Shown: piece by piece, positions 303-55,038 of the stretch
Layout: the number at the start of each line of letters is the position of its first letter
How positions within the stretch are numbered: the stretch's first letter is position 1
Source: Balanoglossus misakiensis
Taxonomy: Eukaryota; Animalia; Hemichordata
Direction of reading: 5' to 3'
Length of the DNA: 64,000 nt
NCBI GenBank assembly: GCA_040954595.2
Contig: CM082580.2
Span: 3,524,783 to 3,588,782, forward strand
Notes under the pieces: generated by a model
The model's database searches: none
Seen by the model: the letters and a program-made list of their open reading frames with translations, nothing else
What the model was told of the DNA's origin: nothing
Program-made: the position numbers and the translations under genes

Positions 303-457
303 AGTTATAAACATTGTAAGACAGGAAAATTATGCATCAGTACATCACTTGTAGCGGGTCTTCTTGCAATCAACTATCAAGCTGATTTCCTGCCATGCAT
401 CGATTCCAGTTATATATTTAAATTACATGAACATCATGCTTGTGTTGAAAGTCTTAC

Positions 458-6400: not shown

Positions 6401-9400
6401 ATGCTTGACCCATCTCTCCAAATGGAACCGATAGTAGGACAGCTTCAAAGTAGAACTTCGCATCCTTGCTTTCTACCATCATATAGTGACCTGCGATAAG
6501 CAAGAAATAACACTTTCAGAATCTTCTGCAAAACTTTAGCAAAGTTGACACACATAATTCGAATGTACCGTACAACTGCAGTGCATAAGGATGTTTAAAG
6601 GTATACAGTCACTTCTAATTTACATATGGCTAAAATGAGTGGTCTAAAGAACATGTGGTGGTCCCCTTTTTGTGTGGCCATCATGGTATTGGCTAGATCC
6701 AAACTTGCATGGTAACTGGGGCTAAATTTTAGTACAAGTAAACTATAGGCGACCATTTATAAATTTGCATACAAGTAACATATATTTATAGGTGACCATA
6801 TACATGTACTTTTAAAGTGGTATTTACACTGCATCAAAGCATTTATGACGTGTTGCACTGTGTTCTGTATAAGCAATTTCTGAAGTGAGACTGTTTTTCT
6901 CCCAAGTATACACAGGAATGTGGCTGAGAGTTTATGATAATTACACGTTGGTTTAAGCACCCACCTTCTTCATTTCCTGTGGCATCGGTGACTGGTGCAT
7001 AGACAGACTCTGAACTTTTGGCTTGGAACAGTTCCCAGCTGTAGTGACCACTACTTTGGTCAAACCACCCACACTGACCACTTTCAAAGTCACAGGTACC
7101 TGAAATACCAACCATACCAATTTCATGTTGGGTCTTATGGAAGGTAGAATCAATATCACTTGAAGTTCCTGAGTGGGGTGGATCAGGTAGTATTTGGCAA
7201 AATGTGCAACTTCGAAACTAAAATCAGTCTTATTTTTGTGATATTACATGAAATTACACTTTGCAGCTTAAATACAGGGTTAAGCTTTCCTAAATCATAT
7301 GCATTATATACTGTAAAACACTTTATTTTCGTGAGTTGAAAATTTCGCGATATCGAGAGAGGCCACTGTTTCGTGAGTATTAATTTTCGCGTTCTCTTAT
7401 TTCATTCACTGCATCGTTATCTTCAAAAAAATTTACGCGACTTTTTATTTTCACGCTTTTTTGGCTCTCGCATATTTCGCGTAAATTTATTGCTTGCGAA
7501 AATAACATGTTTTACAGTACATCTACAAGTGACAAGTTTACTCACCACAGACCATTTCATCTGAGTTATCACCGCAGTCATCTTGGAAATCACAAACCAA
7601 CGATTGTTCAATGCACTGTAAATTATCACAAGTGAAGAGTTCTCCACAAGGATTGGGTGTTGGAGGCGGTGGTGTAGCCACAGGCAGAGCAGTCGATGTC
7701 ACTTCACAATCGGGAGTGAATGTGATGTCATCTATAGCGATGTAGCCATCCACACCAGAACCGACGACAGCTTCAAATAATATCTGTGGAGAAGTGTCGT
7801 ATTAAGGGAATTTGTAGAAAATAATCTAAACATACATCTATGATCTCAACAAAACTAGAAGTGTGGTGTACGTACTGGTAAATTTGACTAGTTTCCAAAT
7901 CATTGGAGTGGGGATTCTCTTGGGTTAGTGTCAATGCAGTCATTTCAGGGAATTAGTTATGTACTGTTAATGAAAGTTCCAAAATCATTAACCTGTGTTG
8001 GGGCCATACTATCAATGAAACAGGTTCTCTGCCTTGTGAATATAATTAGCATGAGAATCCAGTTTGCAATCTTTGGAAAGAGCTGCAGGTCACAATCAGA
8101 AACTCTTCCCAGTTGCATACAATTATGACCCAACAATGATTATAAGAGGAGCAATTCAGACAAGCTTTACCTGCCAGTTGTCTGCACTGTTCAGCTGTAA
8201 TTCTGCTCTGTGCCAATAATCTCCCCTTCCACTACTCACACTAAAGACAATATCATCAGGGTTGATATAACCTTCATATGGACGCAGATAAATATTCAAT
8301 GTACCAACACCGTAACCCAGCATGTGGTAGTAGAACCTCAACTGTCAATTATGAAATAAAACAAAATTATTAACATTTATTAGTTGTGAAATTTGGACAT
8401 TTGATCTCAAAAGCCCACTGATACTTCAATATTCAAAATTTCAACATTTTATTAAAGCCCCTATAGCTGCCAAATTTCACATATTTTTTTCACAGTAAAA
8501 TACTTCAAATGTCTTCCCTATCTAAAATCCTCACTATTAAAGTGGAACGTTGTGATCCGTTTTTGAGCCAATTCTGCGAAATGCGATTAAAAAGTACTAT
8601 GAAAAACGTTGGTTTCATTCACTTTCACTTACGCATAACAGAGCTACAGCCAGCCAAAAACTGCGCGAACCCGGAAGTGAGTGACGTCAGCAACTCGTTG
8701 GAGCGAGCTTATGCTTATACACGCCTGCACTCACGCGACCGACGACGTTAGCATGGCAACATATTCTCGGGTAGTAGGCTACAATTTTGAACCAGAGATT
8801 CCCTTCTACGACCAAGCGACTGAATTTTACAGAGGACAAAAGTTCATGCAGTTCTGATCTCCGATGTGTCCCGTTTGTCAAGGCTTACACTTGGTGTGGT
8901 TTCAGTGAAACCATAGACCCTAGAGTCTATGGTGAAATAGACAATGCTGCAATTAAAATATACCCTCCCTCGTTGTCTCTCCCTCGTTGTCACCTTTTCG
9001 AACCACTTTTCTTACAAAAATACTTAGTCACCTTTTATGGAGTTGAAAAGAATGCAGGTGCATCGTCCTGCTCTCCAGGTGTAGTACGTCCGTAGTATAA
9101 TGGAAGCCAATACTATAGTTATTGTATGCATGTTTCGTCTCTTGAAATGTATTAAAACTGCCCTTTTTAGTTGCTTTCATTTGATAACTATGCGATCGTC
9201 AATAAATGGAAATTAAACCCAAATACGTGTACCAAAAAACGTGCAGGAAGGATTTAAAACGGTACGTTTATTATTATCAGCGGCAGTTAGAACAACTTTG
9301 TATAGGCCTTACGGTTTGTTCATAAACGTCGACATGCATGGCATCATGGACATTGCAGGGTCTATGTCTGCACGCATCGACAAATACAATACACGAAGAG

Positions 9401-11379
9401 CATTGCCTTTGAAAGAAACTTATCCCCGTCGATTTTCCGAATATGTTTTTAAAATCATGAACTTGACATTTCGCCATGTCAGATCCGCGCAAAATGTGTC
9501 TGTTTATTGGAAATGACACGTCGAACGTGTAAGTTGCTGACGTCACTGTAGTATTTTCAACGCGCGTCTTCTGCTTGCGCAGGAAGTGAAAGTGAATTAA
9601 CCCATCGGAACGTTGCCGTTTTTGACACCCGGTTTGTACTTTGAAGCCCAAAATTGAGGGTGTCGTTCCACTTTAAGCCATATTACTTGCATCAGTTTGT
9701 CATTGTATGGAGGCTGATTAAATCGGTGCAGCACCGTTTTAATATACATAGCATGTTCAAATTGCAACATGCAGTCACAATCGGGCATCGATAAGAAGGT
9801 GTTCATGTTTACGTATCAGTTAGCTTATTTAGATGCACCAATCTAAGTTGGAAAATAAAATCATGAAAATAATACACAAAGTGGTAGCTCTAGAGGCTTC
9901 AAGAACAAAATTATTACATGTATCACTTTATATCCACTGTATCAGACAGTTTGCACAGAAATATCTGTCTTCTGACACACAGATATAAGATTCAAATAAA
10001 TTCCATAATGAAAAATAACTTACATAACAATTGTCATTGTGTGTTGGCAGATAATTTTCACTCCTGAACAAGGCTGTATCACCCCCTCTACGTGGAAGAC
10101 GTGAATCTACATAGACATAATGACCGGCTGCTGTACTGGTGGTGTGATCGCGTCCAGGTCCAGTATGAGATCCCACCATGCCTTGCTGTCCACTCTCATG
10201 CCACCAATCAATTGTGGCATACTGCGAATCGGGTTGTCCTCCGTTGTAATAAATTCGTTTCAGATCGCACCAATATTCATTGTAATTAGCATCCTCAAAA
10301 TTACAACCAGTATAGTCATCTGAGGTGAAAGGAAAAAAAGTAGAACACTATGTCATATTGCATAGCAATTGACTATAAATTTCTTACATTAAAATCATAC
10401 AAGAAAGTATCAAGTTGCTGGAGGCTGAAACAATACGTCTTGAAATTATTGTTCTGGCTGTTTCCACCATTTCATGATTTTCACTTTATAGTTCATAATT
10501 GTGTGTGGGATTGTTTGATTGTAGAATGAAAGTACCTACCACAGTCACTTTCATCGGATCTGTCTCCGCAGTCATCTGTCTCGTCACACAATCGATTCTG
10601 ATCCACACAACTTCCTCTCACACAGTGGTACTGCTCAGGTAAACATTCTTCCTGGATTTCTAGAAAATGAACAGAAAAAAAAAACGAACAATAATTAGAA
10701 TTACACCACATTTTCCAATTTCATTACTTTCCAGCAGTGTATAAACCCTGAAGAAAAACCATAGAGTTTTTCATATCTTCTGCTTCTTCATGATACTCTA
10801 AGACTTATGGATTTTGGCAAACTCTGGAGAGAGGTACACCCAACAGAAGAACATGTAAAATGTATGACAACACATTTCATTTATAAAGCATGTCAATCAC
10901 AAACCTACAAATTCACCTACCTGGCATTTCACAATACATCATTTCCAAATCATCAATTGCTATATCACCATACACGCCAAAACTTCTGGCAGCAGAGAAC
11001 ATTATCTGTCAACAACAAATTTAAATGTACTTTACATATTATATAGTTCTATTAACTTTGATATTGAACAATGTCAATAGACATTATCAACAAAAATTGG
11101 AATTACATATCTTTTAGTAAATGAATATGTCCTTTATGAATGTGTTTCTTACCATGAATGGTGAGTTGATTCTACCAAGAAATACAAGACCCTGTCTCCA
11201 TTCATCACCTTGGTTACCAGTCAGATGCCAGAAACGACTTTCAAGATTTACTCTAAGAACAAATACATCCAGGAATCCAATGTCTAATTCAAAGACAAGA
11301 AAAGCTCTGTGTGATTATACTATGTGGGAAAAACTATGTACAAATAACACATATATCAAGCTAATTTTAGACAATTAGA

Positions 11380-11426
<47 letters not shown>

Positions 11427-14400
11427 CATGCTTACCTTCTCCATACATGTGATACCAAAACAGCATTTGACAATGAGGACCAGTCTCGTGTAGCACTCTA
11501 CTTCTCAGTAAGGCTGTGCTCAGTGTATTGCCTTCTTGGGCTTCAACAGCCATGTACCAACCTGTTGGCAGTTGATACAAGGTATGGTGGTGAAAGGGTT
11601 AAAGACATCAACTTATAAAGGACACACTTCTGTTCCAAGCGTGTCAATTGTTTTGATAATTGGCTTTTACGATGTCATGAATGACTTAATAAAATGTGCG
11701 ACTTGGCAGATTAATGAAAAATACTCTATTCCAATATGTGATTTCTTTTTTCATTGTCTAAAAAGTTATAAATTGTACTTTTCCATTCAAGTTAATTGGG
11801 TGGTTGAAATCTACACGAGAGAGCAATATCATTTAATCCTATTGAAATATTTTTATAAATGCATCAACCGATATGTCATCAAAAAATGGTCCTTGGATAG
11901 CTATATTCGCTACATGTATGTCTCAGATTTTTAAACAGTTGTGTTTCAAATCACTCACCATACTCGTTGCCCAGAGTGTGGTCATACTGTGGTCCCGTCT
12001 GTGATGTGTCTGTACCATTTCTGTCTCTCACCCACATATATGCACTGTCACGACTTTCGTCTACGTAACCACACTGATCCTGTTCAAAGTCACACTCACC
12101 TGAACATAGAAAATAGCAAGATTTAAGCCCTCTTTTTTATACACAAGAAATCTGCATTCAGCTAATTAACACATTAGGTCTACTCTAGAATAAAATACTG
12201 CTGCAGTGTTCCCACTATGAAATTTCATAAACAAAGCATAATCTCCTCTGACAGAACTCATGGAAGAAAATGTACTCTGCTGAGATAATACATTTTCCCT
12301 TTTCATGGCAATATTGCACTTTTTTAAAAATGTGGGAATTTTCGACTGCACTTATATTTCTTTAATTTTTCTGCCATTTTGTCATATATAAGTGTTATCT
12401 TGATATACAATATCATTTTATAGGCAGAAATAAAAGCATATCTGATATTATTTACAGCTTACAGGACTTTTTTTCTAGTTGCAGCTCATTGGGGTTTTAA
12501 CATCAAAATTCAAAAGTACACAAAAATGACACTTACCACAACCAATTTCATCAGAGCCATCTGGACAGTCTTCCACCCAATTACAGACAAACTCAAAGTC
12601 TACCTCAGTGCCATCACCACATACGTGCGGCGGAGGTGTTGTGGGAGTTGGACACACACCAGATGCAGAAAAGGTATCGTCCAGTGCAATGTCAGCTTGA
12701 CCTAGAACTCCTGAACCAACAGTTCCTTTCATTATGATCTGATCAAGAAAACACATTCAAGAGATCAGGTGTGTGTACAGCACATGTAAATCAAAATATA
12801 AGGTTTTGAACAAGAAAAGATGAGCCTGATACTTTGTCTTGCGGTGGTGTAGAAATGTCCCAAGACCTTATACAAGTACATTGTCAGCCATGAACTTCTT
12901 CATAATTTGTGAAATGATTATGAAAAGTGCAATTCTTGATTAATTATACTGGAAACAAACATGAACTTACAATAAAATATGTTTCAGAGGTGATGACTAC
13001 TGATTGATGTCTCCACACGTCACCTTGGTTACCACTCATCTGCCATATTACATACTCAGGATTCTTCCCAGATTCTCCTGTTCTTTCTTCACGTATAATC
13101 ACCTTTAAAACAAATATCAAACAGACATGTAATTCACAATAATTAGTTTATATGAACACAAACAAGGCCTTTATAAAATGCAAACTGTCAACCAATATCA
13201 TTTGGTTCCATTACCAACAGAAAAAAAAGTTTTAATCATGATGACAGACTTGTCAAAGCCTCTATACTGTAGCTGCCAATTTTTTTACGAAATTTCATCC
13301 CAGAATTTCTGATGACAAGTTCATTAAGTATGCAAATAATCAGACAATTGACATGCCACGCATGGTACAATCATAATCTGTCTGTAGAAGGATAGGGTTG
13401 AATCAAATTTGGCAAAAGTAATAATGTGTCTATGTCAAAACTTTCACTGTGGTCTCTAAAGACAAATATTACCAGAAAAATAAGTGATCCTAAGGAACTT
13501 ATTATCATTTAGCTGAGACATCAAGACATAAGGACTAACCTCCAAGATTCCAGTGTTGGTTCCATACATGTGATACCAGAAACTAAAGCAACGTGTACCA
13601 GGTTCATTGGACTCAGAATACAACATGGCAGTGTGGCCTTGGAAATCACCCAAGGATGTATCCAATAACATGTAGTAACCTGTTTTAACAGACAGGCAAG
13701 TCATGTAACTTGGGTCAATTGAATATCTCAATTAATAAGTCTACTGAGTTTGTCAGCTTAAATAAAACCAGTACAGAGCTCTCTTCAATCACATAGCATT
13801 ATTTGTGAGTCAAAGATTATAATCCAATTCAAAGAACTGAAAACAGTGATTTGGGGGCCACCAAGGGTTGGAATAATAAATGAAATGACCAAAGTGGTGA
13901 AATTCTGAGGACATGGACAAATTCGAAATCTTTACTTCGTGAATGTTTTTTCTGATTATAGTGTCACTTACCATCTTCTGTCCCCAGCGTATGATCTTTA
14001 GAAGGTCCACTCAGATCAAGTGTACCTGAAATGCCTCTGTATCGTATCCAATCCATGTTGTCTTCATAGGGTGAATTGGACCAGGTACACTTACCATACT
14101 CAAAGTTACACATTCCTAACAGATTCAAAGTAAAAACATGTTGACGTGTGTCACAAATCTTTACCAGAGGAAACTGCAACGACCTTGATCTTGTTTGGCA
14201 CTTGCAATACTTATCATGGGATTGATTGCATGATATACCGTACGAGGATGATTCAAAGATTTATGCCATCTGCAATAGTCCCAATGTTAGCCATATCAAA
14301 CTCAAAGATTTTCATTTCTTTTTTTCTCTTGAGAAGATTTTACTTGCAACGGACACAACTCACCATCCCCAAGGCAGGGTCCATCAATAAGATTCACATC

Positions 14401-17400
14401 ATCAATGGCAATGTCCGCTGTGCCGTCGGCCATGACAGCTTCAAAGACAACTTGATATTCAGACTCAGTGTTGAAGTCCAATGTCGCTGAATGCCAGAAC
14501 TCCCCGGAGTGGCCACTGTCCGTCCATGCAGAATAATCATGTACATCTTTTTCCTTGATAATAGCAGTGAGTGTGCCAACACTTGTACCTGATGGTCAAA
14601 GCAATGGTATATGTAGAACCTTCAGTACATCTTGGGGAAAGGGTTAAACTGCTTTGGTAAGACAGCAGGCACTGACAGGAAAAGAGTTTAAAAAAATATC
14701 AAACAAATGTTGGCTGTGACGCAGGATAAATGCAACTTGTATTCAAGTATCAAACAAGGTGGGGTGAACAACAATGTACCCACACAACAACCCTAACATT
14801 AGCACTTTGACTACTTACCATTCATATGATACCAGAAATGCAGACACTGGGACACTGTTCGTGGATAAAAAGGACTCAACAATCTTGTGACATCTCCAGC
14901 AGTACGACCAGCTCCACTGGCGTACATATAGTGACCTACATGTATATTGGAAACAAAGATACTGTGTGTCAAGGAAGGCTCAACAGAATGATTTACAAAC
15001 TCCACAAAATATGGACGACATTCAATATTAACAACCTGCAAGTTAGGTCACTTTATCTGCAGACTACAAACACTTTTCATTGAGCTATACTTCAGTTGTA
15101 ATATTTCATGAAATGGGTGAGCAAATACAGTATTCTCCCATCAGTCTTTCAAATAAGAAAATTATAAGACTAAGAATTCTTTCAAATTGCTGCAAGATAC
15201 AAATTATGTTACACAAAAACACACCATCCTACGCATTCAAAGAAATGCCAACAAACTATTAGTTTACCATAGGCAGTGCCATAGGTTTTGTCATATTCCG
15301 GACCAGTTCCTGATACATGCTGGGAAGACTCTCCACTTCCACGTATCCAGTCAAAATCCTGGGTGTCTTCAGAATCCTGGTAGTAGCCACATATGTCAGT
15401 ATGTTCAAAATCACAGTAGTCTGCCACAACAAAGAAAATAAGTGTAAATTATTAATTCAAGGGTTTCATTGGAAAATTCACAATGAGTTCAGAATCCACT
15501 GCTAATAATCTGAAAGTTAAGATACTTTGAGTAACACTGAAGTACAGAAAATAAAAAAATCACAAACTTAAGATTATATAAGAACGCATACAGAACTCAA
15601 AGGCACAACGGTCTATATCTGCATCTGATCGATTCACCATCTAAGGGAAAATGCAGCCAAAGACCAGACAAAGGTATTTTGCTTTTTGAAAGAAAAAAAT
15701 ATTTTAATAGTCACATTGCAACAGGTAAATGCTGAAGTGTCAAATTTTATTGGCCACTTGTTAATCCAAATAGCCCCCAGGCATCATTTATGGTCATAGG
15801 TGTACATCTGAACAATTTGATCAGCATAATAGTGAGTTCTCCCTTTAGGCTTTATCAAAATCAACTGCACAGAAAAGATGATGGCGACATTATCACAGCA
15901 GTGGCTTAATTCAGATGCATTAATGCACAGAGGATCAACCCACAATCATTACACAAACCTACAGATCAGCACAGTCTCTGAATTATACATTTAACCAGGT
16001 ATGACTTAGACTAAGTTACAATATAAAAAATTACAACTTCATATTATCATCAATTTCACTTACCAAGAGGTGGACATTCTCCGTCTAACACTCTGATGTC
16101 ATCAATAGCCACATCACCCTGGAACTGCTCACCAGAAATGGCTTGGAACACCAGATTGATATCATCATTCTCATCGATATGAACTTGACCATAAAGCCAT
16201 TCATCGCCTTGTGTTCCTTCCTTTATCCACACGGGATCACCTGCATGAGATAATGTTCAAGATATACAATGGTGTCATTTCTATCAAAACAGTAATATTG
16301 ATTACAGATCATTGTTGGTAATTCTTCAAGATTGAAATAGCACGCCTATCTAATGCAAGATGTGAGGCAGAGTAGTATTCATTTACGTAAAGTGTATTGA
16401 TCACCATTGTTTCATTATTAAAATTTGCTTTATGACTAATTATAAATCAAACTGTAGAATGTTAATTTGCATTGCCACCTAACAACTACGGACAATTTTA
16501 TGCAGTTGACACAAGATTTAATTGGGTGAATATAGTTGTCATCAGACCCAAAATGTTGCAACATGAATCACAGTGGGCTGCAAACATGAAAGTTATAAAT
16601 GGCGAAGTTCTGATCCGCATTTTCCCCAATAAACAGTACTTGCTGAACAGTCTCTGTGCTTGTTATTTTTCTGTGTTACCCCCACCTATCTTATCAGTTG
16701 CTAATCCAGAATACAAGCTATCGCATTTCCCATTAAGCACCTGCTAATGACTTTATCTGTGTGCCCCATCCACGGATTAAGCGGATAAAGTAAACATTGG
16801 TCAGCCAGTACCATAACAAGTGACAACTGACCGATGTTTACTTTATCCACTTAATCTGTGGATGGGGCACACAGATTAAGTCGTTAGCAGGTGATTAATG
16901 GGAAATGGATAGCTTTTATTCTGGATTAGCAAATGATAAGACAGGTTGGGAAAACACAGAACGGAACGTACTTCGCCATTTATAACTTTCATGTTTGCAG
17001 CCCCCCCTGTGCATGAATTGACTATAAGTCACTTACTGAGTGAATTTAGTACACCACTTCTGAAGCGAACGGATAGTGTGTGAACATGCTGACCAAACAT
17101 GTGATACCAGAATGTGATGCATCGTCCACCGGTTAGAGAAGGTACAGTTGAACTTTGAAGATTTGATGTCAAGTTGTTGCGCACAGCCAGCGAATCTACA
17201 TAGGCGTACCAACCTGTCATTGAAAAATAAGAAACACTTGAAAGTATGTATTTTATCCATTATGTGCATGTTCCAATCAAGGGGCGTATACATGTAAACT
17301 ATGTACCAGTATTCTCAAAACATCCTAAGGCAATAAATCTATTTTCATTAAAGATAAAATACTCCCCCCCCCCCTCCAAATTATGAATAACTGACATTCT

Positions 17401-23600: not shown

Positions 23601-26600
23601 TATAAAGACCCCCTACCTAAAAAGGCCAATTTAGGAAAGTCCCTTGACTGGCCACTATAGACAGATTTGACTGTATAAATTGTAAGACAACAATCACTCA
23701 CCCAGAAGCCTGCCGGTTGTTGCCCAAGCATAACACGAGCCTGTTTCCACTGATTTCCCTGATCTCCAGTGACTAAGTAAACAAGATACATGTCTGGAGG
23801 TGTGGTACCATTGGCCACAAATACAGCAATGGAAGCATCTGCATCCCCATGCAAGTAATACCAGAAGTCTATTTCACATGCTTGACCCATCTCTCCAAAT
23901 GGAACCGATAGCAGGACAGCTTCAACGTAGAACTTAGCATCCTTGCTTTCTGCCATCATATAGTGACCTGTGATAAAGCAAGAAATAACACTTTCAGAAA
24001 CTTCTGCAAAACTTTAGCAAAGTTGACACAGATAATGCAAATGTACCATACAACTGCAGTGCATACGGTGTTTAAAGGTATACAGTCACTTGTAATTTAC
24101 ATATGGCTAAAATGGCAGGTATATAAGAGTGATCTGCAGAACATGTGGTGGTCCCCTTTTTGTGTGGCCATCACGAGAAAATCTGGCATTGGCTGGATCC
24201 AACCTTGCTACGGTAACTGATGCTAAATTTGCATACAAGTAAAATATAGACGACCATATACATGTATACATGTACTTTTGAAGTGGCATTTACACTGCAT
24301 CAAAGCATTTATGATGTGTGTTGCACTGTGTTCTGTTCAGTGAGGCTGTGAATGTGGCTGAGAGTTTATTTAAATGACACAACTTGGTTAGCACCCACCT
24401 TCTTCATTTCCTGTGGCGTCAGTGACTGGTGCATAGACAGACTCTGAACTGTTGGCTTGGAACAGTTCCCAGCTGTACGCACCACTACTTTGGTCAAACC
24501 ACCCACACTGACCACTCTCAAAGTCACAGGTACCTTAAATGCAAAAAAAAAAAGAGAAAAAATTATTAGGGCGACATCAAAAGATCAATGTAGAGCCTTG
24601 TAGTAACTTCAGTTTATAATATGCATGGTCTGGATCCAGGTCTCTGATTGGCTGAAGCTGGAAGACTTGGACCCTCAATAGTGGATACTGTTAAATGGCA
24701 TAGTTTTGCGAGCAATAAATTTGTGCAAAACAGGCAAGCCAAAAAAATTTGTGAAAATAAAAAGTCGCACAAAATTTTCCCAGAGATAACAATGTAGTTA
24801 GTGAACGCGAAAATTTATCTTGAATCTTTTGATATCATGAAATATTTACTGTCACGAAAATAACCCGTTTTACAGTGACTAAAAAAATGAAATAGAACAT
24901 ATAGAAGAGAAAGCATCTAAATAGAATACATTTTATAAATTTTACAGGCTGGGGCATCAATTCCTACCACTGTAGAAATTCTAGCATGAGAGCTACTGGC
25001 TTGTTCAGATAGACAAACATTAAACACTCATGGACATATACGTCAAGTGTATGTCCACTACATGTATTCCTTGGTAGCATTGGCGGCTCTTGTACAAAGA
25101 AAATAATAGTACAATCACAAAACAACTCACCACAGACCATTTCATCTGAGTTATCACCGCAGTCATCTTGGAAATCACAAACCAATGATTGTTCAATGCA
25201 CTGCAAATTATCACAAGTGAAGAGTTCTCCACAAGGATTGGGTGTTGGAGGCGGTGGTGTAGCCACAGGCAGAGCAGTCGATGTCACTTCACAATCGGGA
25301 GTGAATGTGATGTCATCTATAGCGATGTAGCCATCCACACCAGAACCAATGACAGCTTCAAATAATATCTGTTGAGAAGTGTCATGGTGAGGCAATTTGT
25401 AGAAAATAATCTAAACATATGATCTCAACAAAACTAGAAGTGTGGTGTATGTATTGGTAAATTTGACTAGTTTCCAAACCATTGGACTTGGGATTCTCTT
25501 GGGGTCGGGTCAATGCAGTTACAACATAATCAGGGAACAGTTGTGTACTGTAAATGGAAGTTCCCAAACCATTTAACTGTCTGTTCCCCAACCATAATTA
25601 TATTATATCATGCTACCATCCGCAATTCTGATTGGACGAGAGCTGAATCCAGCGATGGTAAAATACTGTTTTACCACTGCTGGCAGTGGTAAAACGGGCC
25701 CCTGAACTAGCATGCAGCAGGGAAAATGTGCGGTTATACCACAGTCGCGCGGGATTAAACCAAATGAATAACATAAAAACACTTGAATTTACGGATGTTT
25801 TATTTTGGAACTGCTCTGCTCTGAATATTTTGCACTTTTGTCACTTTTTGGCGTCTGCTTTATCACAGTTTAATGCTCGATCCCGGACCGCACGTGTTTA
25901 CATTCACCGTCGCCATGTTGGTTCACGATCGTAATTTCTATTTCTGACGCCGTTTCGGTAAGAAAATGACACTGATTTGCCACAAAAACAACTGTTGATA
26001 TAATATAATAGCAATAACCCCCACCTCAGTCGGGTATACACTCGATTTGGGTACAATTGGCTCCATATAGCACTCGCCTAACGGCTCGTGCTATATGTCT
26101 CGAATTGTACCAAAATCTCGTGTATACCCGCCTGCGGCGGGGGTTATTGCTTAAGCAAACACACTGAATTTTGAACATATGGTACTGGGGCCATACCATT
26201 AATGAAAATAGGTTCTCTGCCTTGTGAATCTACAATACACCCGTTTCATAATTCGAGCGCCCCTGTGCAGTTATCATGAATTTGAACTCAAAGCGAGGCC
26301 AATGAGGAAAATCCCTTGGTCAAATTTCCCTATGAGCCTCGCTCTGAGTTAAAAATTCATGATGGTTATGTGAGGGCGCTCGACTTATGAAAAGGGCGTA
26401 TACTTTGCATTGGAATTCAGTTTGCAATCCTTGAAAAGAGGTCACAATCAGAAACTCTTCCAACTGCATCCAATTACATGTATGACCCAATAATGATTAT
26501 AAGAGGAGCATTTCAGACAAACTTACCTGCCAGTTGTCTGCACTGTTAAGCTGTAATTCAGCTCTGTGCCAATAATCTCCCCTTCCACTACTCACACTGA

Positions 26601-28495
26601 AGACAATATCATCAGGATTGATATAACCTTCATATGGACGCTGATATAAATTCAATGTACCAACACCGTAACCCAGCATGTGGTAGTAGAATCTCAACTG
26701 TCAATTATGAAATAAAAAAATATTAACATTTATCAGCCGTGAAATTTGGATATTTGATCTTAAAAGCCATCTGATACTTCATTATGCAAAAGCTTCAACA
26801 TTTTAAGAACAAATTATTACAAAAATCTTATCCAATGGCGCCATGTGTAATACATTGACAGAAACTAAAACGTGCCAGACTACAATCCCATGTCCTTGGG
26901 GTGTAAGATTCTGTTATAAATCACTAACTTCCGGTATTGTACAGAGAAATCTTAATAACATGGTCATTTTGTTTTGGTAACCACCAGCAAATGACTAGAT
27001 ATGCAACACACAGATATAAGACTCAAATAAATTCCATAATAAATAAATAACTTACATAACAATTGTCATTCTGTGTTGGCAGATAATTTTCACTCCTGAA
27101 CAAGGCTGTATCACCCCCTCTGCGTGGAGGACGTGAATCTACATAAACGTAATGGCCAGCTGCTGTACTGGTGGTGTGATCGCGTCCAGGTCCAGTATGA
27201 GATCCCACCATGCCTTGCTGTCCACTCTCATGCCACCAATCAATTGTGGCATACTGCGAATCTGGTTGTCCTCCGTTGTAATAAATTCGTTTCAGATCGC
27301 ACCAATATTCATTGTAATTACCATCTTCAAAATTACAACCAGTATAGTCATCTGAGGTGAAAGGGATAAAAGTAGAACAATATGTCATATTGCAAAGCAA
27401 TTGATATAAGATTTTACATTTCTTACATTAAAATCATACATTGTACAAGAAAGTATGAAGTTGCTGGAGGCTGAGATAATACGTCTTGAAATAATTGTTC
27501 TGGCTCTTACTAAATTTTGAAGTGGTGGTTTTTTTGTAGAGGTCATGTTTCTGCCATTTTCACGTTATGGTACAAAATTGATCATTCTCAAGAGTTGACA
27601 CTGTAGGTGTCCTTGGGGTTGTTTGATTGTAGAATGAAAGTACCTACCACAGTCACTTTCATCGGATCTGTCTCCGCAGTCATCTGTCTCATCACACAAT
27701 CGATTCTGATCCACACAACTTCCTCTCACACAGTGGTACTGGTCAGGTAGACATTCTTCCTGGATTTCTAGAAAATAAACAGTGAAAAACCGAACAATTA
27801 TTAGAATTACACCACATTTTCCAATTTCATTACTTTCCAGCAGTGTATAAACCCTGAAGATAAACCATCGTCCCTGATTTGGAGTTTTTCATATCTTCTG
27901 CTTATTCATGATGCTCTGAGACTTATGGATTTTGGCAAACTCTGGAGAGAGGTACACCCAACAGAAGAACATGTAAAATGTATGACAACACATTTCATTT
28001 ATAAAGCATGTCAATCACAAACCTACAAATTCACCTACCCGGCATTTCACAATACATCATTTCCAAATCATCAATTGCTATATCGCCATACACGCCAAAA
28101 CTTCTGGCAGCAGAGAACATTATCTGTCAACAACAAATTTAAATGTACTTTACATATTATATAGCTCTATTAACTGTGATATTGAACAATGCCAATATAC
28201 ATGATCAACAAAAATTGGAATTACATATCTTTTAGTAAATGAATATGTCCTTTATGAATGTGTTTCTTACCATGAATGGTGAGTTGATTCTACCAAGAAA
28301 TACAAGACCCTGTCTCCATTCATCACCTTGGTTACCAGTCAGATGCCAGAAACGACTTTCAAGATTTACTCTGACAACTAAAACATCCAGGAATCCAATG
28401 TCTAATTCAAAAACAAGAAAAGCTCTGTGTGATTATACTTTGTGGGAAAAACTATGTACAAATAACACATATCAATCTAATTTTAGACAATTAGA

Positions 28496-28541
<46 letters not shown>

Positions 28542-31500
28542 TCATGCAAATCCATGCTTACCTTCTCCATACATGTGATACCAAAACAGCATTTGACAAT
28601 GAGGACCAGTCTCGTGTAGCACTCTACCTCTCAGTAAAGCTGTACTTAGTGTATTGCCTTCTTGGGCTTCCACAGCCATGTACCAACCTGTTGACAAATA
28701 TTAATTATTTTAGTATTTTTGCTGTAATGGCCAATGTGTTTTAATCCTTTTTTTAATTTCTATTTGCTACATGCTACATCTTGGAGTTCATACACCTTAC
28801 ATGTACCTCTTCAGATTGCTAGTTAATCAAACTTACTACAATATTATCACAGGGAAATCTGAAATCCAATTTAAATTGGGAATCAATGACAGATACAGTG
28901 ATTTCTAATTGTCTGACATGCTGTTTGGAACAAGATGAACAATGACCAAAATTACAAAAAATTCTTAAAATTACAAAATCACATATTTTTACAATTTAAA
29001 ATCATTACTTTATTCATGGAAACAGGCTGACAGAAAAATATCAAAGCTTAACCCTACCACACCATTTTGGGGAAAACAAGGAGTTTTGACAAAAAAAAAC
29101 TCCCTCAATGTAGAATATAATGTGACAAAGCAATCTGACTATTTTTTTTTTATTTTCTCAGCCATTTCCATATTTTCACTTAAATCAGCATGTGTACCAA
29201 TTCCGACACACAACTCACCATACTCAGTACCAAGAGTGTGGTCATACTGTGGTCCCGTCTGTGATGTGTCTGTACCATTTCTGTCTCTCACCCACATATA
29301 TGCACTGTCACGACTTTCGTCTACGTAACCACACTGACCATCTTCAAAGTCACACTCACCTAACATATACATGTAACAACATTATGACAGTATAGTCTCG
29401 TACCACAGATAATAACATGCGTGAACAATCTGCTAGCAAAAATTAACACCTGACTTTGATACATCAATTAAAATACACACATGAATAATTCTTGTTTAGG
29501 TTAAATCGCTGCCTGCATATCACTATATACTGATAGTTAATTGATGTCAATTTAAGTTTATCAGATTTGTCTGATCAGTAGAACATCACAAATTATACAC
29601 GCTATTATAATACATGTAAATTGAAAAGCAGTGAAAAATTAGAACATTGCGTTATTAGCAAATGCACAGATGGATACAAAGAATTCATTTAGAAAATGAA
29701 TATGGCAAATATTCCTTGGACGCCTACTTCGTTTATCACTGCAATGCACTGCACAGACTTACCACAGTTGAATTCATCCGAGCCATCTGGACAGTCTTCT
29801 ACCCAATTACAGACAAGCTTATAGTCTACCTGGGTCCCATCCCCACAGGCATAGGGCGGAGGTGTTGTGGGAGTTGGACACACACCAGGTACAGTAAAGG
29901 TATCATCCAGGGCAATGTCAGCTTGACCTAAAACTCCTGAACCAACAGTTCCTTTCATGATGATCTGATCGAGGAAACACATTCAAAGGATCAGATGTGT
30001 GTACAGCATTTCATCTTCTTAACAATGATTAATAGATGTAACTATGTGCCAGAAATGTTATGAGTGATTAACACTGGAGAAAGTTTGGCCTGGGCACAAA
30101 TTCAGCCAGTCTTGTCTTTATATGGCGAAAGGATAGGACTACAAAATTTCAGTAAATTTCAAATTAACTCCAGTAAAGACAAAAGGCTAACTTCAGTTTT
30201 GGATCAATATTTTTCTCTTAACATTTTGGTGTTTAATCATGTTGGAATCAATAGCAATTGTCTTCTAACCTTTGTATTTGCCTGCTGGATGATTCCAGTT
30301 CATGACAAGTTTACAATCTTACAATTCATTCCACAATTTGCATTATTTCATTTGCAATATTTTTTTTCCTTTTAAAGGTTATTTGTGAATGACAGAAAAG
30401 TTGCATCACATAAACTGATAAACCTTTGAACTTACAATAAAATATGCATCAGAGGTGATGACTTCTGAATGATATCTCCACACATCACCTTGGTTACCAC
30501 TGATCTGCCATATCACATACTCTGGATTCTCACCAGATTCTCCTGTTCTTTCTTCACGAACAACCACCTTTAAAAACAAAATTAAAACATCTTTACAAGG
30601 CCAGGAAGGGAAAAAAGTTTTTCTTCTTCTCAGAATTGCAGTTAGTTATTTTATTTTTGATGTGAAATCACAAATGGAAGAACGTCAATATATTTTGACT
30701 AATACAATGAAACTGGCCAAAACTAACGTTCAAAATCTGTAAATTTGTTTATACTGAATAGCTATGTTGCTTTTCATCAAAGGACACCATGTTATCTGTA
30801 AAATAAACTCTTCTGCAAAGTGAACAACTGTCTCAGCCATTTTTGTATTGCATTACTGAATAATTGAAATTGATCTATTCAAGTATGTCTGAGAAACAAT
30901 GAAACAAAAACCTTACCATCCTACTTTCACACACATAAAAAAAATTCACATTTACAAATAGTCCAGATGTTCCATGAATTTAAACACTTCCATTATTAAA
31001 CCTGTACTTCCTGGCTGTAAAATGATCACACACCATCAGTATGGATTTACCTCCAAGGTTCCAGTGTTGGTTCCATACATGTGATACCAGAAACCAAAGC
31101 AACGAGTACCAGGTTCAAAGGACTCAGAATACAACATGGCAGTGTGGCCTTGGAAATCACCCAAGGATGTGTCCAATAACATGTAGTAACCTGTTTGAAC
31201 AGACAGGCAAGTCATGTAACTTGGGTTAATATCTCAATTAAAATGTCTACTGAGTTTGTCAGCTTAAATAAAACCAGTACACATCTCTCTTTAATCACAT
31301 AGTATTTTTTGTGAGTCAAAGATTATAATCCAATTCAAAGAACTGAAAACAGTGATTTTGGGACCACCAAGGGTTGGAATAATAAATGAAATGACCACAG
31401 TGATGAAATTCTGAGGACATGGACACATTCGTGAATGTTTTTTCTGATTATAGTGTCACTTACCATCTTCTGTCCCCAGCGTATGATCTTTAGAAGGTCC

Positions 31501-34500
31501 ACTCAGATCCAGTGTACCTGAACTGCCTCTGTATCGTATCCAATCCATGTTGTCTTCACGCGGTGAGTTGGACCAGCCACATTTACCATACTCAAAGTTA
31601 CAAACTCCTAAAAGATTCAAAGTACAGTAATATAATTATAAACTTAAGGCAATGGCAACAACAAGTTTAACAAATCAATGAAAAAAGTCCTATCTGGATC
31701 AAAAGAAGAAAAAAAATATTTACAGGTATAGTATACATATGTATAAGACTGTCATTGTGCCAAGTTAGAATGGATGATCAGTTCAGACAGGTATGTAATA
31801 GTCTAGTCTCCACAGCAGAAAACAAAGTGATGCCCATAGTAACACTATAATACCGTCTCCTACCAATTAAGGATGTACGTTCAGTAAAATTCAAAGTATT
31901 GTATTTTTTTTTAATTGTGGATTTTTGGATTCTCCTTTGTATGTATAATGAAAATCTGTAATAAAATATAGGGGTCACCGCGCTTGTTTTTGAAATACAG
32001 AGCTATGAATTTGGTACGTCGATAATAGAAGAAATCTGCTGACTCAGCATTTTTTCACCAATGGTTTGTCTATGGGCAAAATTTTTAACGCAATTTATCT
32101 CAAAATAGAGCGCGGTGACCACTATATTTTATTTTACCAATGAATTTATATTTGCTGGACTTAGCTATGTGTAAAATTTCGTGAAAATGACAATATTAGA
32201 AGTTTGTTTTCTGGCGATTATCAATCCAATCCTATGGGAAAAAGACGGGGCGCGCAGTGTTTCCGGTTTATGTTCTGCGCGTACATCCTTAAGAACAAAG
32301 AACAAACTTGGCCCAGTGGATGAACGTTTGAGTTATGGTGGATGCACACACAGATGGACTCATGGAGTTTAATCTAGAAGTTCCTCGGTCTAAGTTCATG
32401 GGGACCAAAAACACTGTTTCACAATTTGCATATTTTGACTCTAGAAAATGAAAAAAAAAATGATAGACAAAAATCAATATCAATTGACTAACCATCTACA
32501 AAGCACGGCCCATCAATAAGATTCACATCATCAATGGCAATGTCCGCTGTGCCGTCGGCCATGACAGCTTCAAAGACAACTTGATATTCGGACATAGTGT
32601 TGAAGTCCAATGTCGCTGAATGCCAGAACTCTCCAGCATGGCCGGAATCATACCAAACGGCACTCCCAAGATCTCCATATTCCATTATGTACACATTCAG
32701 TGTGCCGACATCAGTTCCTGAAAGTGAAAACATTACAATGATGCCATTAGTACATGAAATGTGAATAGACAAATACCATAAACATGTGAAATAGTCTAAT
32801 AATACATGTTTCTTTCACAAGCAGACAGCCAATATGTGGGATGACTGTAACAACTTGAAAAAGGAAACATAATTACATGTACCTGTACGAGGACTTCAAA
32901 CTGAAAGATTTACAGTTTATAATAAGTGTACATGTTCCAGGTATTTGCACTTCGGAAATTGTACATGAGTTCACGTAGAGAACAGTTTGACATCAAATAG
33001 ACTCTTTGGAAAAGATTTCTGGTGTAAAATAACGGTAGGTGTAAGAGATTTGAGAAGAATGAATGACTTGGTAAAACACCCAGTAATGTGTTCATTATGA
33101 ACAACATCACAAAGTAAATGTGTTACTGTTATGCATAATCATCTTGATTATTTTAAAGGTAAATATGAACTGTAAGTAAAGGTACTTTCACCCAATTTCC
33201 CTATAATATTGCCACGGAAAAATATAGATTTCGACAAAACCATGGTGGTGAACATGCAAGTGTATATAAGCTTTGTGACCTATCGCACACCATGACAACT
33301 TACCATTCATGTGATACCAGAAATGTAGACACTGAGAGAATGTTTGTGGATAGACAGGGCTCAACAATCTCGTTGTATCTCCAGCAGTACGACCAGTTCC
33401 ACTAGCATACATGTAGTGACCTTCATCAAAATGAAAAAAAAATGTTTGAAATGCCACCAGATACATGAGGTAGATTTTTAAAAAATCATGGAGAGTCTAC
33501 AATACTAAAGCCTCACTGAATATTTGACAGGGGAAATATTTACAATGTACAATGTACCTCTTGACCAGAGCCTATACGAATATTAGATTACAAAAACTCA
33601 TCTCAGTATAAAACCTCAGTGATACAGAAAAAGTATTTGTTGAAAAATACTGTATTGTTGGTTTACCATAGGCAGTGCCGTAGGTTTTGTCATATTCCGG
33701 ACCAGTTCCGGATCCATGCTGGGAAGACTCTCCACTTCCACGTATCCAGTCAAAATCCTGGGTGTCTTCAAAATCCTGGTAGTAGCCACATATGTCAGTA
33801 TTTTCAAAGTCACAGTAATCTGTACAGACACAAGATTTGCATTCAATTTTCAAGTTGAAAATTAAGCCCCAAAAAGTCACTTTTCTGGGCATCTTTCAAC
33901 CAACTCCATATAGATTAGCTGTACAACAACCTTTAACTTCTGACTGTCTTATGCATCGCCAGAAACATAATCATGGTAAGTTCATTTGACAGTTTACTAG
34001 CTGGTTTTGTGAGTCTAGTATGCGGAGAGCTCATCACTATACAGCAGAAATTACAAGACACAGAGCACTGAGTGGCTGTGGCAGTCTGGTAACACTGTGA
34101 TAAATGATAGTAACAGGGATGATATCATGGTTGTACTTACCATGTTACCATGCCTGTTATGGTTGTACTTACCAAGAGGTGGACATTCTCCGTCTAACAC
34201 TCTGATGTCATCAATAGCCACATCACCCTGGAACTGCTCTCCAGAAATGGCTTGGAATACCAGATTGATATCATCATTCTCATCGATATGAACTTGACCA
34301 TAAAGCCATTCATCGCCTTGTGTTCCTTCCTTTATCCAGACGGGATCACCTGCATGAGATAATGTACAGATGTACAATGGTGTCATTTCTATCAAAACAG
34401 TGTTGGGTTTTTCTTTAGTAATATCAATGATTAACATAAGAACTTTTTTATTTAGATAATTAAGTTGGTAATTCTTCAAAATGGAAATATCATGCCTATC

Positions 34501-37500
34501 GAATGCAAGATGTGAGGCAGAGTAGTATGCATGTATTGATCAGCATTGCTTCATTATTGAAATTTGATTATAATATGATTGGTCTGAATCCAGCTTGCTG
34601 ATTGGCTGGAGCCAGGGTTTATATCCTCATTAAGAAAACCTGGACCCTAGGGTGAATATAGTGATTATCAGACCCATATTTTTTCAACTTGAAATGACTC
34701 TAAGTCACTTACTAAGTGAATTTAGTAATATTGATGATAGATCATTTAGTTGGTAATTCTTCAAGATTGAAATAGCATGCCTATCTAATGCAAGATGTGA
34801 GGCAGAATTAGTATTCATTTATGTAAAGTGTATTGATCACCATTGTTTCATTAGTAAAATTTGATCATGACTAATTATAAAACAAACTGTAGAATTTTAA
34901 TTTCCATGGCCACCTAACAACTACTTACAATTTTATGCAGTTGACACAAGATTTAATTGGGTGAATACAGTGATCATCGACCCAAAATGTTGCAACTTGA
35001 ATTGACTAGTACAAGTCACTTACTGAGAGAATTTAGTACACCACTTCTGAAGCGAACGGATAGTGTGTGAACATGCTGACCAAACATGTGATACCAGAAT
35101 GTGATGCATCGTCCACCAGTTAGAGAAGGTACGGTTGAACTTTGAAGATTTGATGTCAAGTTGTTGCGCACAGCCAGAGAATCTACATAGGCGTACCAAC
35201 CTGTATTTGAAAAATGACAAAAGAAATGAAGGAATTATTTTCAACATAAGCATATCATACACGACACACTAGCGCTATACAAAGTGTGCTCTCCAAGACA
35301 GTCTACAACATGCCACAGATGCGGAAAAAAATCCCCATGATGCAAAGAAAGAATTCCCAACTTCCTTAAATGCACAATTGTTTCCATCAAATTGAGAAAC
35401 TCAACTGAATTGTCATGCGCAAAATTCTAGAGAAAGCACAAGTCACCAAATAATTGTTCGTCAAACAAAAACTTTCACAAGATTTAGAATCTGATCATAT
35501 GTTCAGTCACACTATTTCAATGACCATCATACATTTATCAGTATTATTTCATTCACAGGCGGCAGAATACCACTGACTGAAGAAATTTCTTCTATATGTT
35601 ATATATCAGGCTACGGTCAGTGGTATTCCACCGCCTGTGGTTTCATTGCTATCAGCACAATTATCAAAGTTTGACTGAAAAAAAAAAAGAATCACTGGGT
35701 AGTACCAGGCTACTCTATAGCCATCTTACCATCTTTAGTTCCAATGGTATGATCCGCTGGTGGTCCAGTGTTGGAACGACCTTGATTGCCCTGTTGTCTG
35801 CTCCAATCCAGATCATCCCCTCCAAGCAGACCATTTTCTTCATTGATCCATGAACACCAGTCAATCTCAAAGTCACAGTCCCACTCACTGGGTGGCTGCG
35901 TGGGTTGCGTGATGATAGTTTGTGCTGTTGTTGTGGAAAATTAACCGTTGTATTGTTAGACGGCGCCCTCTAACGACATGAGCTTTAAGATATTTGAAGA
36001 TAGGATATTTTGCATTCTCTCTCGAAATTGTCGAGTTACACATGCTGGTACACACGTTAATTACATTACATTATTTAAGAAATATCTCGAGTTTGCCATT
36101 ATATCCGTGACGGAATGGCAACATCCTTGTCGGCATAACCGGATAACCACATTTTTTTGTGTGTGATCTATATCTCTGTCTGTTCTTTTTGATAATTAAA
36201 TACATGTAATAACACATGATAGCGTGGGCAACATCACGATTTGAAGCCTGCACGAGGGATGGTGATCATCTCTGACCATAATATTGATGATGCCCTCGCC
36301 GCACCGAGCCGCAGGCGAGGGTATCATCAATATTACGCCGAAAATTTGAACGTACATACACTGCAGCAGAGATAGAAGAACGTAGGGTTGCGTCCATGTC
36401 GTACGTTGCTGATTGCTGCTGAGAAATGTCTCGATCTCCCAAGAATTATACTACTCCGAACTCAGTTAATTTTGAGGGTACTGCAATGTTGGTTGCGATT
36501 TGTGTGTATTTACTGTTCGTTTGCAGTAAAATATCGTCCAGTTGAACAGGTGTGTAGCCTGTGTATAGCTTTGAAGCCAAAAAGATGTGCGATGAACGAC
36601 AGTTTGTTACGCGCAGAAGTCGTGCGCAGAACACCAAAACAACCACTTTTTTCTCACGTGAGCGCGTCTCAGCCAATCACGAATACGACATAATACGTGA
36701 GGTGAAATAAAGTCCTAAATCCGACACATTTCATTTTGTACAACTGTGTTTGCATAAACTGGTTAATGATTCGAAGAAAAAAACAGATGCTTTCAGCGGA
36801 AAAACTACAATGTAAAGTGCATGCGGTGGTTAAATCTTTCAGAAATATCGTTATTGATTCAATCGACTTACATTCACAAATAATATGTAACTTATACACA
36901 GCCAGTGATAATATTGAACACCTATTGCCTGGCCATGAGGGCCATAGCGGCCGTTTATTACACCCGAGGGGCTGTGAGTTACCAGAATCATATGCTATTT
37001 CCCGAGGCCGTAGGCCGAGGGAAATAGCATATGATTCTGGTAACTCACAGTCACGAGGGGGTAAAAACGGCTGATATGGCCCGAATATAGGCCAGGCTAT
37101 AGGTGTTTTATAATAAACCTCATGCTAACAGCTGGGAAAATCTTGCAATTTTCTCTTGAGGTTGGCAGACGACATCTTCCGCGGTGGCCATTGTGTCAGA
37201 CGACGCGACGCTGATTGACGTGACCGAGTCTGCGCACTCACGCTGGTCACGTGACCGGTTTATATTTTTTCTGCTATTTCCCTAGCGGTTCATAGTCGAT
37301 TCTATTTTCCTATCACGTGACGGATTCTGGCGAATCACGGCATAGTATTAGCATGAGGTATATTATAATAGTATCTATTGTTACCCCGCCAGATGACACT
37401 CTAACAAAACAGAAAAAAAACTTTGCCATGACTTAATATTTTACAAAAGTCCCGTGTTTCCGAAACAGGATATTCCGGCAATGCAAGAGATAGCTTAAAC

Positions 37501-41407: not shown

Positions 41408-41490
<83 letters not shown>

Positions 41491-54908: not shown

Positions 54909-54943
<35 letters not shown>

Positions 54944-54986
54944 ATGTATGTATGTATGTATGTATGTATGTATGTATGTATGTATG

Positions 54987-55038
<52 letters not shown>

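What the first reader, a model, noticed from the sequence alone, without database searches (positions are those of the whole stretch)
7100..35924. Patchwork concerted evolution: near-identical exons flanked by unalignable introns
Seen: most introns in 1-7099 and 7784-11435 align closely to copy 1, as do 13680-13971 and 16241-17036. Introns 7100-7545, 11562-11958, 12100-12536, 13103-13539, 14116-14363, 14589-14818, 14936-15267, 15421-16063 and 17214-17403 show little or no similarity to their counterparts beyond the splice flanks. Yet exons 17404-17600, 17037-17213 and 16064-16240 are almost base-identical to copy 1, including synonymous sites, while exon 14819-14935 has many substitutions. A single duplication event cannot give this pattern. 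Inference: an old duplication or larger array is being repeatedly homogenised by conversion tracts, some ending at exon borders. This could be exon-seeded DNA conversion or cDNA-templated conversion. Known parallel: concerted evolution of repeats in the gamete-recognition receptors VERL and EBR1.
Basis: partly seen in the sequence, partly recalled or inferred. Interest (0 to 1): 0.8.

Follow-up and report, generated by a model that had tools for sequence, protein, structure and literature searches.

The report
Ancient repeats overwrite each other's exons
A giant predicted cell-surface receptor gene, likely from an acorn worm, carries a 31-exon block in tandem copies whose exons are nearly identical while a third of their introns no longer align, a patchwork likely kept up by the copies overwriting each other's DNA, probably for hundreds of millions of years because an acorn worm of another family has the same repeated block.

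Summary
Observation confirmed. The minus strand holds one open reading frame (3,820 codons in view) for a MAM/LDL-receptor-A protein. It contains two tandem 18-kb, 31-exon units; contigs of the same organism point to a third beyond position 1. One exon switches from 40 differences in 90 bases to 3 in 114. The ortholog in Glandiceps talaboti repeats the same unit with the same borders. Its copies are 91-99% alike, against 61-65% to ours, and they group by species. The unconverted end of its last unit is as divergent as different families. Best reading: an old intragenic array homogenised by DNA-level gene conversion and unequal crossover, from which introns and one half-exon of the edge unit escaped. 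cDNA-templated conversion is not supported, and nothing links the gene to gamete recognition. The mechanism is known (HMA4, mammalian gene pairs, VERL, CR1). New here are the extreme end state, the unit size and the likely age.

The parts
38251..44742 (-). Unique N-terminal part: 10 exons from the ATG at 44742 (hydrophobic leader, LDL-A, LDL-A, MAM, LDL-A, MAM), spliced in frame to unit A
   Evidence: 1 of 4 acceptor combinations tried gives an open frame. The last 83 residues match the start of Glandiceps XP_077978868.1 at 58%.
17629..35924 (-). Unit A (first, 5'-edge unit): 31 exons, about 1,660 residues, 9 MAM + 3 LDL-A
1..17628 (-). Unit B (second unit): 31 exons, 1,670 residues; the window ends inside the intron that follows it
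17404..17628 (-). First exon of unit B and A/B junction: 30 bases longer than its partner 35730-35924; 1 difference in the shared 195 bases
11562..17403 (-). Old block in unit B: introns 11562-11958, 12100-12536, most of 12739-12970, 13103-13539, 14116-14363, 14589-14818, 14936-15267, 15421-16063 and 17214-17403 do not align to unit A
28688..35729 (-). Partner old block in unit A (introns 28688-29218, 29360-29762, 29965-30435, 30568-31050, 31608-32492, 32718-33303, 33421-33666, 33820-34172, 35201-35729)
13540..14068 (-). Inferred conversion tract inside the old block: 3' part of exon 13972-14115, whole intron 13680-13971 (14 mismatches in 273 aligned bases), exon 13540-13679; the limits are approximate
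16064..17213 (-). Inferred conversion tract inside the old block: two exons (3 and 4 differences in 177) with the alignable intron between them
14499..14588 (-). Unconverted relic: first 90 coding bases of exon 14364-14588, 40 differences, 15 of 30 residues differ, as much as between acorn-worm families
14385..14498 (-). Converted part of the same exon: 3 differences in 114 bases, 1 of 38 residues
7100..7545 (-). Isolated unalignable intron inside the young block (partner 24534-25130); both hold a related repeat element in opposite orientation
1..11561 (-). Young block of unit B: introns mostly align to 17629-28687 with 2-11% mismatch; exons between two aligned introns have uniform pS 0.093

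Best explanation
The window holds a giant MAM/LDL-A gene, predicted to encode a membrane receptor, with a tandem 18-kb, 31-exon unit in two copies in view and likely a third, and the copies were likely duplicated long ago and have since been overwriting each other by DNA-level gene conversion and unequal crossover. Shown: the exon-intron layout, the open frame, the patchwork of identity, the same repeated unit in Glandiceps and the grouping of copies by species. Inferred: purifying selection keeps exons similar enough to pair, so short tracts keep resetting them, synonymous sites included. Longer tracts and crossovers also carry introns along. An intron or part-exon that drifts too far stops pairing and then diverges without limit, so introns fall into two states, about 94% alike or unalignable. 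Escape is concentrated at the outer edge of the array, which a single unequal crossover is least likely to replace: the 5' third of the first unit here, the 3' third of the last unit in Glandiceps.
For: (1) Exons beside unalignable introns have third-position mismatches of 0 of 59, 4 of 47 and 2 of 42, against 0.55 expected at saturation; codon bias is weak (ENC 50). The same exons differ from Glandiceps at 16 of 64, 15 of 49 and 9 of 47 residues, so selection alone does not freeze them. (2) A sharp border lies inside one exon: 40 differences in 90 bases, then 3 in 114. (3) Glandiceps XP_077978871.1 repeats the same unit with the same borders, and its neighbour XP_077978870.1 is a further copy. 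Identity is 95% between our units, 91-99% among Glandiceps units and 61-65% across species. Trees group copies by species (100/100), and position-wise pairings are rejected (p-AU 6e-6 and 3e-59). (4) Age: over exons 1-5 and 8-10, the last two Glandiceps units sit on branches of 0.22 and 0.26 in an unresolved star with Saccoglossus (0.27) and our pair (0.38). (5) Unalignable introns cluster at the 5' end of the unit (runs p 0.005; rank test p 0.0004), and aligned introns vary in age (2-11% mismatch, p 0.004). (6) Synonymous differences are enriched at exon edges beside unalignable introns: 20 of 129 against 19 of 306, p 0.003; within-exon permutation p 0.027. (7) Contigs of the organism show three variants of the intron-to-first-exon junction and three of the B-type intron 17214-17403. 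(8) A published model gives this ordering of divergence when conversion falls with divergence (bioRxiv 10.1101/2025.10.29.685298, passages).
Against: The edge enrichment disappears when exons 14364-14588 and 14819-14935 are dropped (9 of 104 against 19 of 306, p 0.38), and edge versus interior is not significant at 3 of 4 window widths. There is no GC elevation: GC3 is 37%, against 49% in 19 matched exon stretches of the neighbouring single-unit gene. Intron length does not predict escape (p 0.76), unlike in the HMA4 model. The age tree is unresolved: Glandiceps internal plus last unit is neither supported (25/3) nor rejected, so an ancestral array is likely but not shown. Position orthology is imperfect: Glandiceps has a 41%-identical unit between the N-terminal part and the homogenised units, and our gene lacks it. 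Per-exon divergence profiles of the two species do not correlate (rho 0.01, 20 exons). No Glandiceps DNA, no population sample and no RNA were available. Runs X1 and X2 are one sample, may be the source of the window, and could hold more than one individual.
Confidence: 0.8

Rival explanations
1. Unequal crossover alone: unit B is a single chimera (3' part from A, 5' part from an old unit), and the exons of the old block stay alike through purifying selection, with no short conversion tracts.
For: The 17 exons between two aligned introns have uniform pS 0.093 (p 0.48). Unalignable introns are clustered on one side of exon 11436-11561. A third unit sharing the B-type intron is indicated. This probably explains the broad polarity and is part of the best reading.
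Against: It cannot give aligned introns 13680-13971 and 16241-17036 inside the old block, the unalignable intron 7100-7545 inside the young block, synonymous identity of isolated exons far below saturation, or the border inside one exon.
Confidence: 0.07
2. One young duplication, with the unalignable introns replaced afterwards by transposon insertions and deletions; Glandiceps duplicated the same block independently.
For: Introns here do take large insertions (about 1.5 kb in 8342-10023, 457 bases in 16568-17026), and repeat-level depth covers parts of 7100-7545 and 12100-12536. Internal repeats of 60% identity or more occur in 21 of 224 long related proteins, so independent duplications happen in this family.
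Against: Insertions elsewhere leave aligned flanks; these nine introns keep little beyond the splice ends. Bins over 11562-11958, 13103-13539, 14116-16063 and 17214-17403 show depths of about 84-600, against 2,500-83,000 over most repeats (X1). dS is not uniform, one half-exon is as divergent as between families, and both species share the unit borders.
Confidence: 0.05
3. Exons are converted from a reverse-transcribed mRNA (cDNA), which would leave introns untouched.
For: Several exons are homogenised with unalignable introns on both sides. For those exons alone the template cannot be read from sequence.
Against: 0 of 30 internal intron positions differ between the units. Twenty whole introns and 44 bases of another are homogenised. 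Exon edges beside aligned introns are as well converted as interiors (19 of 306 against 35 of 570). By the Glandiceps layout these exons would lie more than 10 kb from the 3' end of the message (inference).
Confidence: 0.04
4. Assembly artefact: two divergent haplotypes or paralogous loci joined in tandem.
For: Hemichordate genomes can be highly heterozygous (PMC11175523, passage). No single contig spans the region.
Against: The frame stays open through 72 exons and the junction. Contigs join the intron to the long first exon in three variants. B-type contigs differ from the window at only 3-5 bases in 455-881, far below the 6.5% between units. An independent assembly of another family shows the same tandem unit.
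Confidence: 0.04

Closest known systems
MAM and LDL-receptor class A domain-containing proteins (MALRD1/MLRP-like); ortholog models Glandiceps talaboti XP_077978868.1, XP_077978870.1, XP_077978871.1 and Saccoglossus kowalevskii XP_077864144.1
   Same: Alternating MAM and LDL-A domains. Colinear unit at 61-65% identity. The Glandiceps protein ends in a hydrophobic segment at residue 5509 and an NPxY motif at 5587.
   Different: The starfish relatives (XP_022097778.1, XP_033638977.1) match the unit once at about 38% and show no internal repeat of 60% or more. Our gene lacks the 41%-identical first unit that Glandiceps has.
Arabidopsis halleri HMA4 tandem paralogues (bioRxiv 10.1101/2025.10.29.685298; passages read)
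   Same: Interlocus conversion keeps exons and synonymous sites alike while some introns escape; the model makes conversion fall with divergence.
   Different: HMA4 copies are separate genes, dated there at 7.6 and 0.3 million years, with escaped introns only 5-6% apart and escape tied to intron length. Here the units lie inside one reading frame, escaped introns are unalignable, and escape follows position, not length.
Mammalian gene pairs BMP8A/B, DDX19A/B, TUBG1/2 (PMC2720389; passages read)
   Same: Mosaic evolution with concerted and divergent segments, lasting over 100 million years; paralogues group by species.
   Different: Those are gene pairs with raised GC in converted parts. Here there is an intragenic array, no GC rise, and a likely greater age.
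Abalone VERL repeat array (PMC2704960; passages read)
   Same: Internal repeats are homogenised by conversion or unequal crossover, edge repeats diverge, and array length varies.
   Different: VERL repeats are about 153 residues and repeats 1-2 adjoin the rest without introns. Here each unit is about 1,660 residues in 31 exons, with other domains and no evidence of an egg role. EBR1 is recalled only; I did not read about it.
Human complement receptor CR1 long homologous repeats (PMC2188588; abstract seen)
   Same: Multi-domain tandem repeats inside one receptor, 70-99% alike in patches.
   Different: 450-residue repeats of short consensus repeats. I did not see intron data for CR1.

Membership tests
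MAM/LDL-A (MALRD1/MLRP-like) proteins | Alternating MAM and LDL-receptor class A domains | tested here: met
   11 of 12 exon translations hit PF00629 or PF00057; 9 MAM starts and 3 LDL-A motifs per unit
MAM/LDL-A (MALRD1/MLRP-like) proteins | Signal peptide and C-terminal membrane anchor | tested here: inconclusive
   Hydrophobic leader seen by eye after the ATG at 44742 (no predictor run). The anchor lies outside the window and is seen only in the Glandiceps ortholog.
MAM/LDL-A (MALRD1/MLRP-like) proteins | One-to-one orthology with vertebrate MALRD1 or MAMDC4 | not tested
   No tree with vertebrate proteins was built
Concerted evolution by interlocus gene conversion | Copies group by species, not by position | tested here: met
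   (protein level, two species with several copies)
Concerted evolution by interlocus gene conversion | Copies are older than their overall similarity implies | tested here: met
   Unalignable introns, relic half-exon, deep split of the Glandiceps last unit
Concerted evolution by interlocus gene conversion | Mosaic tracts of identity, synonymous sites included | tested here: met
   GENECONV itself was not run
Concerted evolution by interlocus gene conversion | Polymorphisms shared between copies in a population | not testable with these tools
   Only contigs of one sample
Concerted evolution by interlocus gene conversion | Raised GC in converted regions (seen in mammals) | tested here: not met
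   GC3 37% against 49% in the neighbouring gene; aligned introns 35% against 33%
cDNA-templated conversion | Precise intron loss | tested here: not met
   0 of 30 internal intron positions differ
cDNA-templated conversion | Homogenisation confined to exons | tested here: not met
   20 of 31 introns and a 44-base intron flank are homogenised
VERL/EBR1-type gamete receptors | Their domain types (ZP-type for VERL; CUB and thrombospondin for EBR1, recalled) | tested here: not met
   Only MAM and LDL-A found in the 12 exons scanned
VERL/EBR1-type gamete receptors | Egg-surface expression and sperm binding | not testable with these tools
   No RNA holder listed

The most novel reading that the evidence does not exclude
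A 1,660-residue, 31-exon receptor module has been held in tandem and rewritten exon by exon inside one acorn-worm gene since before the families split (more than 370 million years for Ptychoderidae and Spengelidae, PMC11175523). Exons of only 140-195 bases still seed conversion between otherwise unalignable introns, so this would be one of the longest-running and most finely bounded cases of concerted evolution, with escaped introns and half-exons recording the true age.
Probability: 0.55. Interest if true: 0.7.

Novelty: new variant of a known kind. Interest (0 to 1): 0.55.

Why it matters
Theory predicts that conversion between duplicates ends once they diverge, and that selection on exons can keep it going while introns escape. 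This locus shows that end state base by base in one gene: introns that are either about 94% alike or unalignable, and a tract border inside an exon. It offers a direct way to measure the shortest homology that still converts, and how long concerted evolution can last. It also warns that dating such repeats from exon similarity (pS about 0.1) would be wrong by a wide margin, and that these giant genes get split into several models (four to five in Glandiceps). The gene's function stays unproven; by layout it is likely an endocytic or adhesion receptor.

Tried and rejected
No whole genome is held, so I could not read the third unit or build a repeat library. A homolog search with one 86-residue exon found nothing; the profile library search did. 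No RNA holder was listed; this is no evidence on expression. Runs X3 and X4 (another organism) covered essentially repeat elements only. Contig depth was too noisy to fix copy number: the first exon shows depth 147 against 23-43 for single variants, which fits about five copies per diploid, but contigs drop variants. The position-1-like contigs share the window's position 1-83 differences but fewer of those further on, so they are a related variant, not proof of the window's own third unit. Idea that unit A is the 41%-identical ancient first unit being overwritten: rejected, since its relic segment resembles the homogenised type. Idea that the same exons resist conversion in both species: no correlation. 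Polarising the Glandiceps internal versus last unit with our sequence was even (17 against 18 matches). GC-biased conversion and intron length gave no signal. Literature: ten searches. None of the listed papers concerns this gene or repeat; 'MAM + LDL-receptor class A + concerted evolution' gave 0 papers, and 'MAM and LDL + hemichordate' gave 2 unrelated ones. The library lacks most subscription papers, including genome papers and their supplements. Earlier scan findings: none near this place or with these words; eight shown from the genome were on other subjects.
Full report
The gene. Self-comparison shows that window 1-17.6 kb is repeated at 17.6-35.9 kb. I annotated exons on the minus strand by splice dinucleotides and frame. 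Each unit has 31 exons; 30 have the same length in both, and the first exon is 225 bases in unit B (17404-17628) and 195 in unit A (35730-35924). Ten further exons upstream start at an ATG at 44742, and all 72 exons splice into 3,820 codons without a stop (1 of 4 acceptor combinations tried was open). Eleven of 12 exon translations scanned hit MAM or LDL-receptor class A in Pfam, and each unit has 9 MAM starts and 3 LDL-A motifs. A second, single-unit gene of the family runs on the plus strand from about 52.9 kb. It is 72% identical to a Ptychodera flava protein, 62% to Glandiceps and 54-56% to Saccoglossus, so the organism is likely an acorn worm near Ptychoderidae (inference).

The observation. 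Of 31 intron pairs, 20 align far above shuffled controls. Aligned introns differ at 6.5% of sites on average, from 2.1 to 10.8%, more spread than chance (p 0.004). Exons differ at 132.75 of 1,049 synonymous and 106.25 of 3,931 nonsynonymous sites, and the synonymous rate is far from uniform (p 7e-9). The 17 exons between two aligned introns are uniform (pS 0.093, p 0.48), while the six counted as having no aligned flank average 0.216. The unalignable introns cluster in the 5' third of the unit.

Why one duplication does not do. With this gene's codon usage, saturated third positions would differ at 0.55. Exons 17404-17598, 15268-15420 and 11959-12099, each beside unalignable introns, differ at 0 of 59, 4 of 47 and 2 of 42. 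These exons are not frozen by selection, since they differ from Glandiceps at 16 of 64, 15 of 49 and 9 of 47 residues. Exon 14364-14588 has 40 differences in its first 90 coding bases and 3 in the next 114. In the first part the two units differ at 15 of 30 residues, against 14-21 of 30 between families; in the second part at 1 of 38, against 15-18 of 37-38. That is a tract border inside an exon. Transposons do not explain the unalignable introns: in run X1, bins over seven of them show depths of about 84-600, against thousands to tens of thousands over most repeats, and real insertions elsewhere leave aligned flanks. Synonymous differences are enriched at exon edges beside unalignable introns (20 of 129 against 19 of 306, p 0.003), but this rests on two exons and vanishes without them (p 0.38).

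The same array in another family. A profile search with one exon led to Glandiceps talaboti (Spengelidae) XP_077978870.1 and XP_077978871.1. The latter holds the tail of one unit, two whole units with the same borders as ours, and then a unique part with a hydrophobic segment and an NPxY motif. Glandiceps units are 91-99% alike where homogenised, ours 95%, and across species 61-65%. A 15-row tree groups copies by species with full support and rejects both position-wise pairings tested (the short tail unit was left out). The last Glandiceps unit shows the mirror patchwork at protein level: almost identical over exons 31-11, 13-28% different over exons 10-8, identical over exon 7, and 25-50% different over exons 5-1. 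On those divergent columns the two Glandiceps units, Saccoglossus and our pair form an unresolved star (12 rows, four partial rows left out). So the duplication is about as old as the family splits; Ptychodera and the spengelid Schizocardium last shared an ancestor more than 370 million years ago (PMC11175523, passage). An ancestral array is therefore likely but not proven, and the layouts differ: Glandiceps keeps a 41%-identical first unit that our gene lacks. Internal repeats are not rare in the family (21 of 224 long proteins), but only the Glandiceps ortholog has this long, near-identical period.

More than two units. Contigs of one sample of the organism (X1, X2; possibly the window's source, so not independent) show three variants of the junction between the last intron and the long first exon. 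One resembles window positions 1-83. They also show three variants of the B-type intron 17214-17403. In one diploid animal that needs a third unit on at least one chromosome. Other B-type contigs differ from the window at 3-5 bases in 455-881, so most homogenising events between A and B are older than typical allelic differences.

Mechanism. The best reading is divergence-dependent, DNA-templated conversion plus unequal crossover. Exons stay pairable under purifying selection and are reset in short tracts. Long tracts and crossovers carry introns along. Segments that drift too far escape for good, mostly at the array's outer edges. The order of divergence matches a published model for HMA4, mosaic evolution in mammalian gene pairs and divergent edge repeats in VERL. 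cDNA templating is unlikely: no intron is lost, and introns are converted too. Against my reading: no GC rise, no effect of intron length, a fragile edge statistic, an unresolved age tree, and no population, RNA or Glandiceps DNA data.

Verdict. The process is known; this case is an extreme and apparently undescribed variant (ten searches, none of the listed papers on this gene; subscription papers and genome-paper supplements not seen). Papers: passages read for PMC2720389, PMC2704960, PMC11175523 and bioRxiv 10.1101/2025.10.29.685298; abstract only for PMC2188588; the rest as search listings. The labels MALRD1, MAMDC4, EBR1 domains and NPxY as an endocytosis signal are recalled.

Noticed in passing
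window 52900-64000, + strand: A head-to-head neighbouring gene made of a single unit of the same family (about 40% to the repeat unit; 72% to Ptychodera flava XP_070565434.1, 62% to Glandiceps XP_077978867.1). The order matches neighbouring accession numbers in Glandiceps, so this is a conserved cluster.
   Followed up: partly
window 38251-42434, - strand: The N-terminal part is 42% identical over 432 residues to the module that follows the last repeat in Glandiceps XP_077978871.1 (3704-4133), so the array is bracketed by two copies of an older module.
   Followed up: partly
window 35730-35924: Unit A starts with a linker exon 30 bases shorter than in unit B and joins the N-terminal part directly. 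The 41%-identical first unit seen in Glandiceps is missing, likely deleted at this linker.
   Followed up: partly
window 16568-17026: A 457-base element with inverted ends inside an intron of unit B is skipped by contigs of X1 and X2, so it is likely a recent insertion private to this copy.
   Followed up: partly
window 8452-9974, 25600-26400, 31800-32300, 5540-5860: Large insertions in one unit only.
   Followed up: no
window 17402 (X1 record 4): One variant of the B-type intron runs on with 19 other letters at the donor end that by eye resemble the donor end of the A-type intron; possibly a relic of the shared ancestor.
   Followed up: no
window 14499-14588: In the relic half-exon, unit B is the more derived copy (21 of 30 residues differ from Saccoglossus, against 14 for unit A). 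It could be a diversified surface that resists conversion.
   Followed up: partly
P0151 (Glandiceps XP_077978871.1), about residues 880-920 and 2600-2640: Both whole units carry a short duplicated exon-sized stretch that the upstream unit XP_077978870.1 and our units lack, so an exon duplication spread with the unit (seen).
   Followed up: no
P0007, P0056, P0104, P0159, P0239, P0250: Other invertebrate MAM proteins hold near-identical internal repeats of shorter period (about 170-500 residues), so concerted or recent expansion may be common in this family.
   Followed up: no
window 41410-42010: A 600-base compound microsatellite of changing four-base units inside an intron of the N-terminal part.
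   Followed up: no
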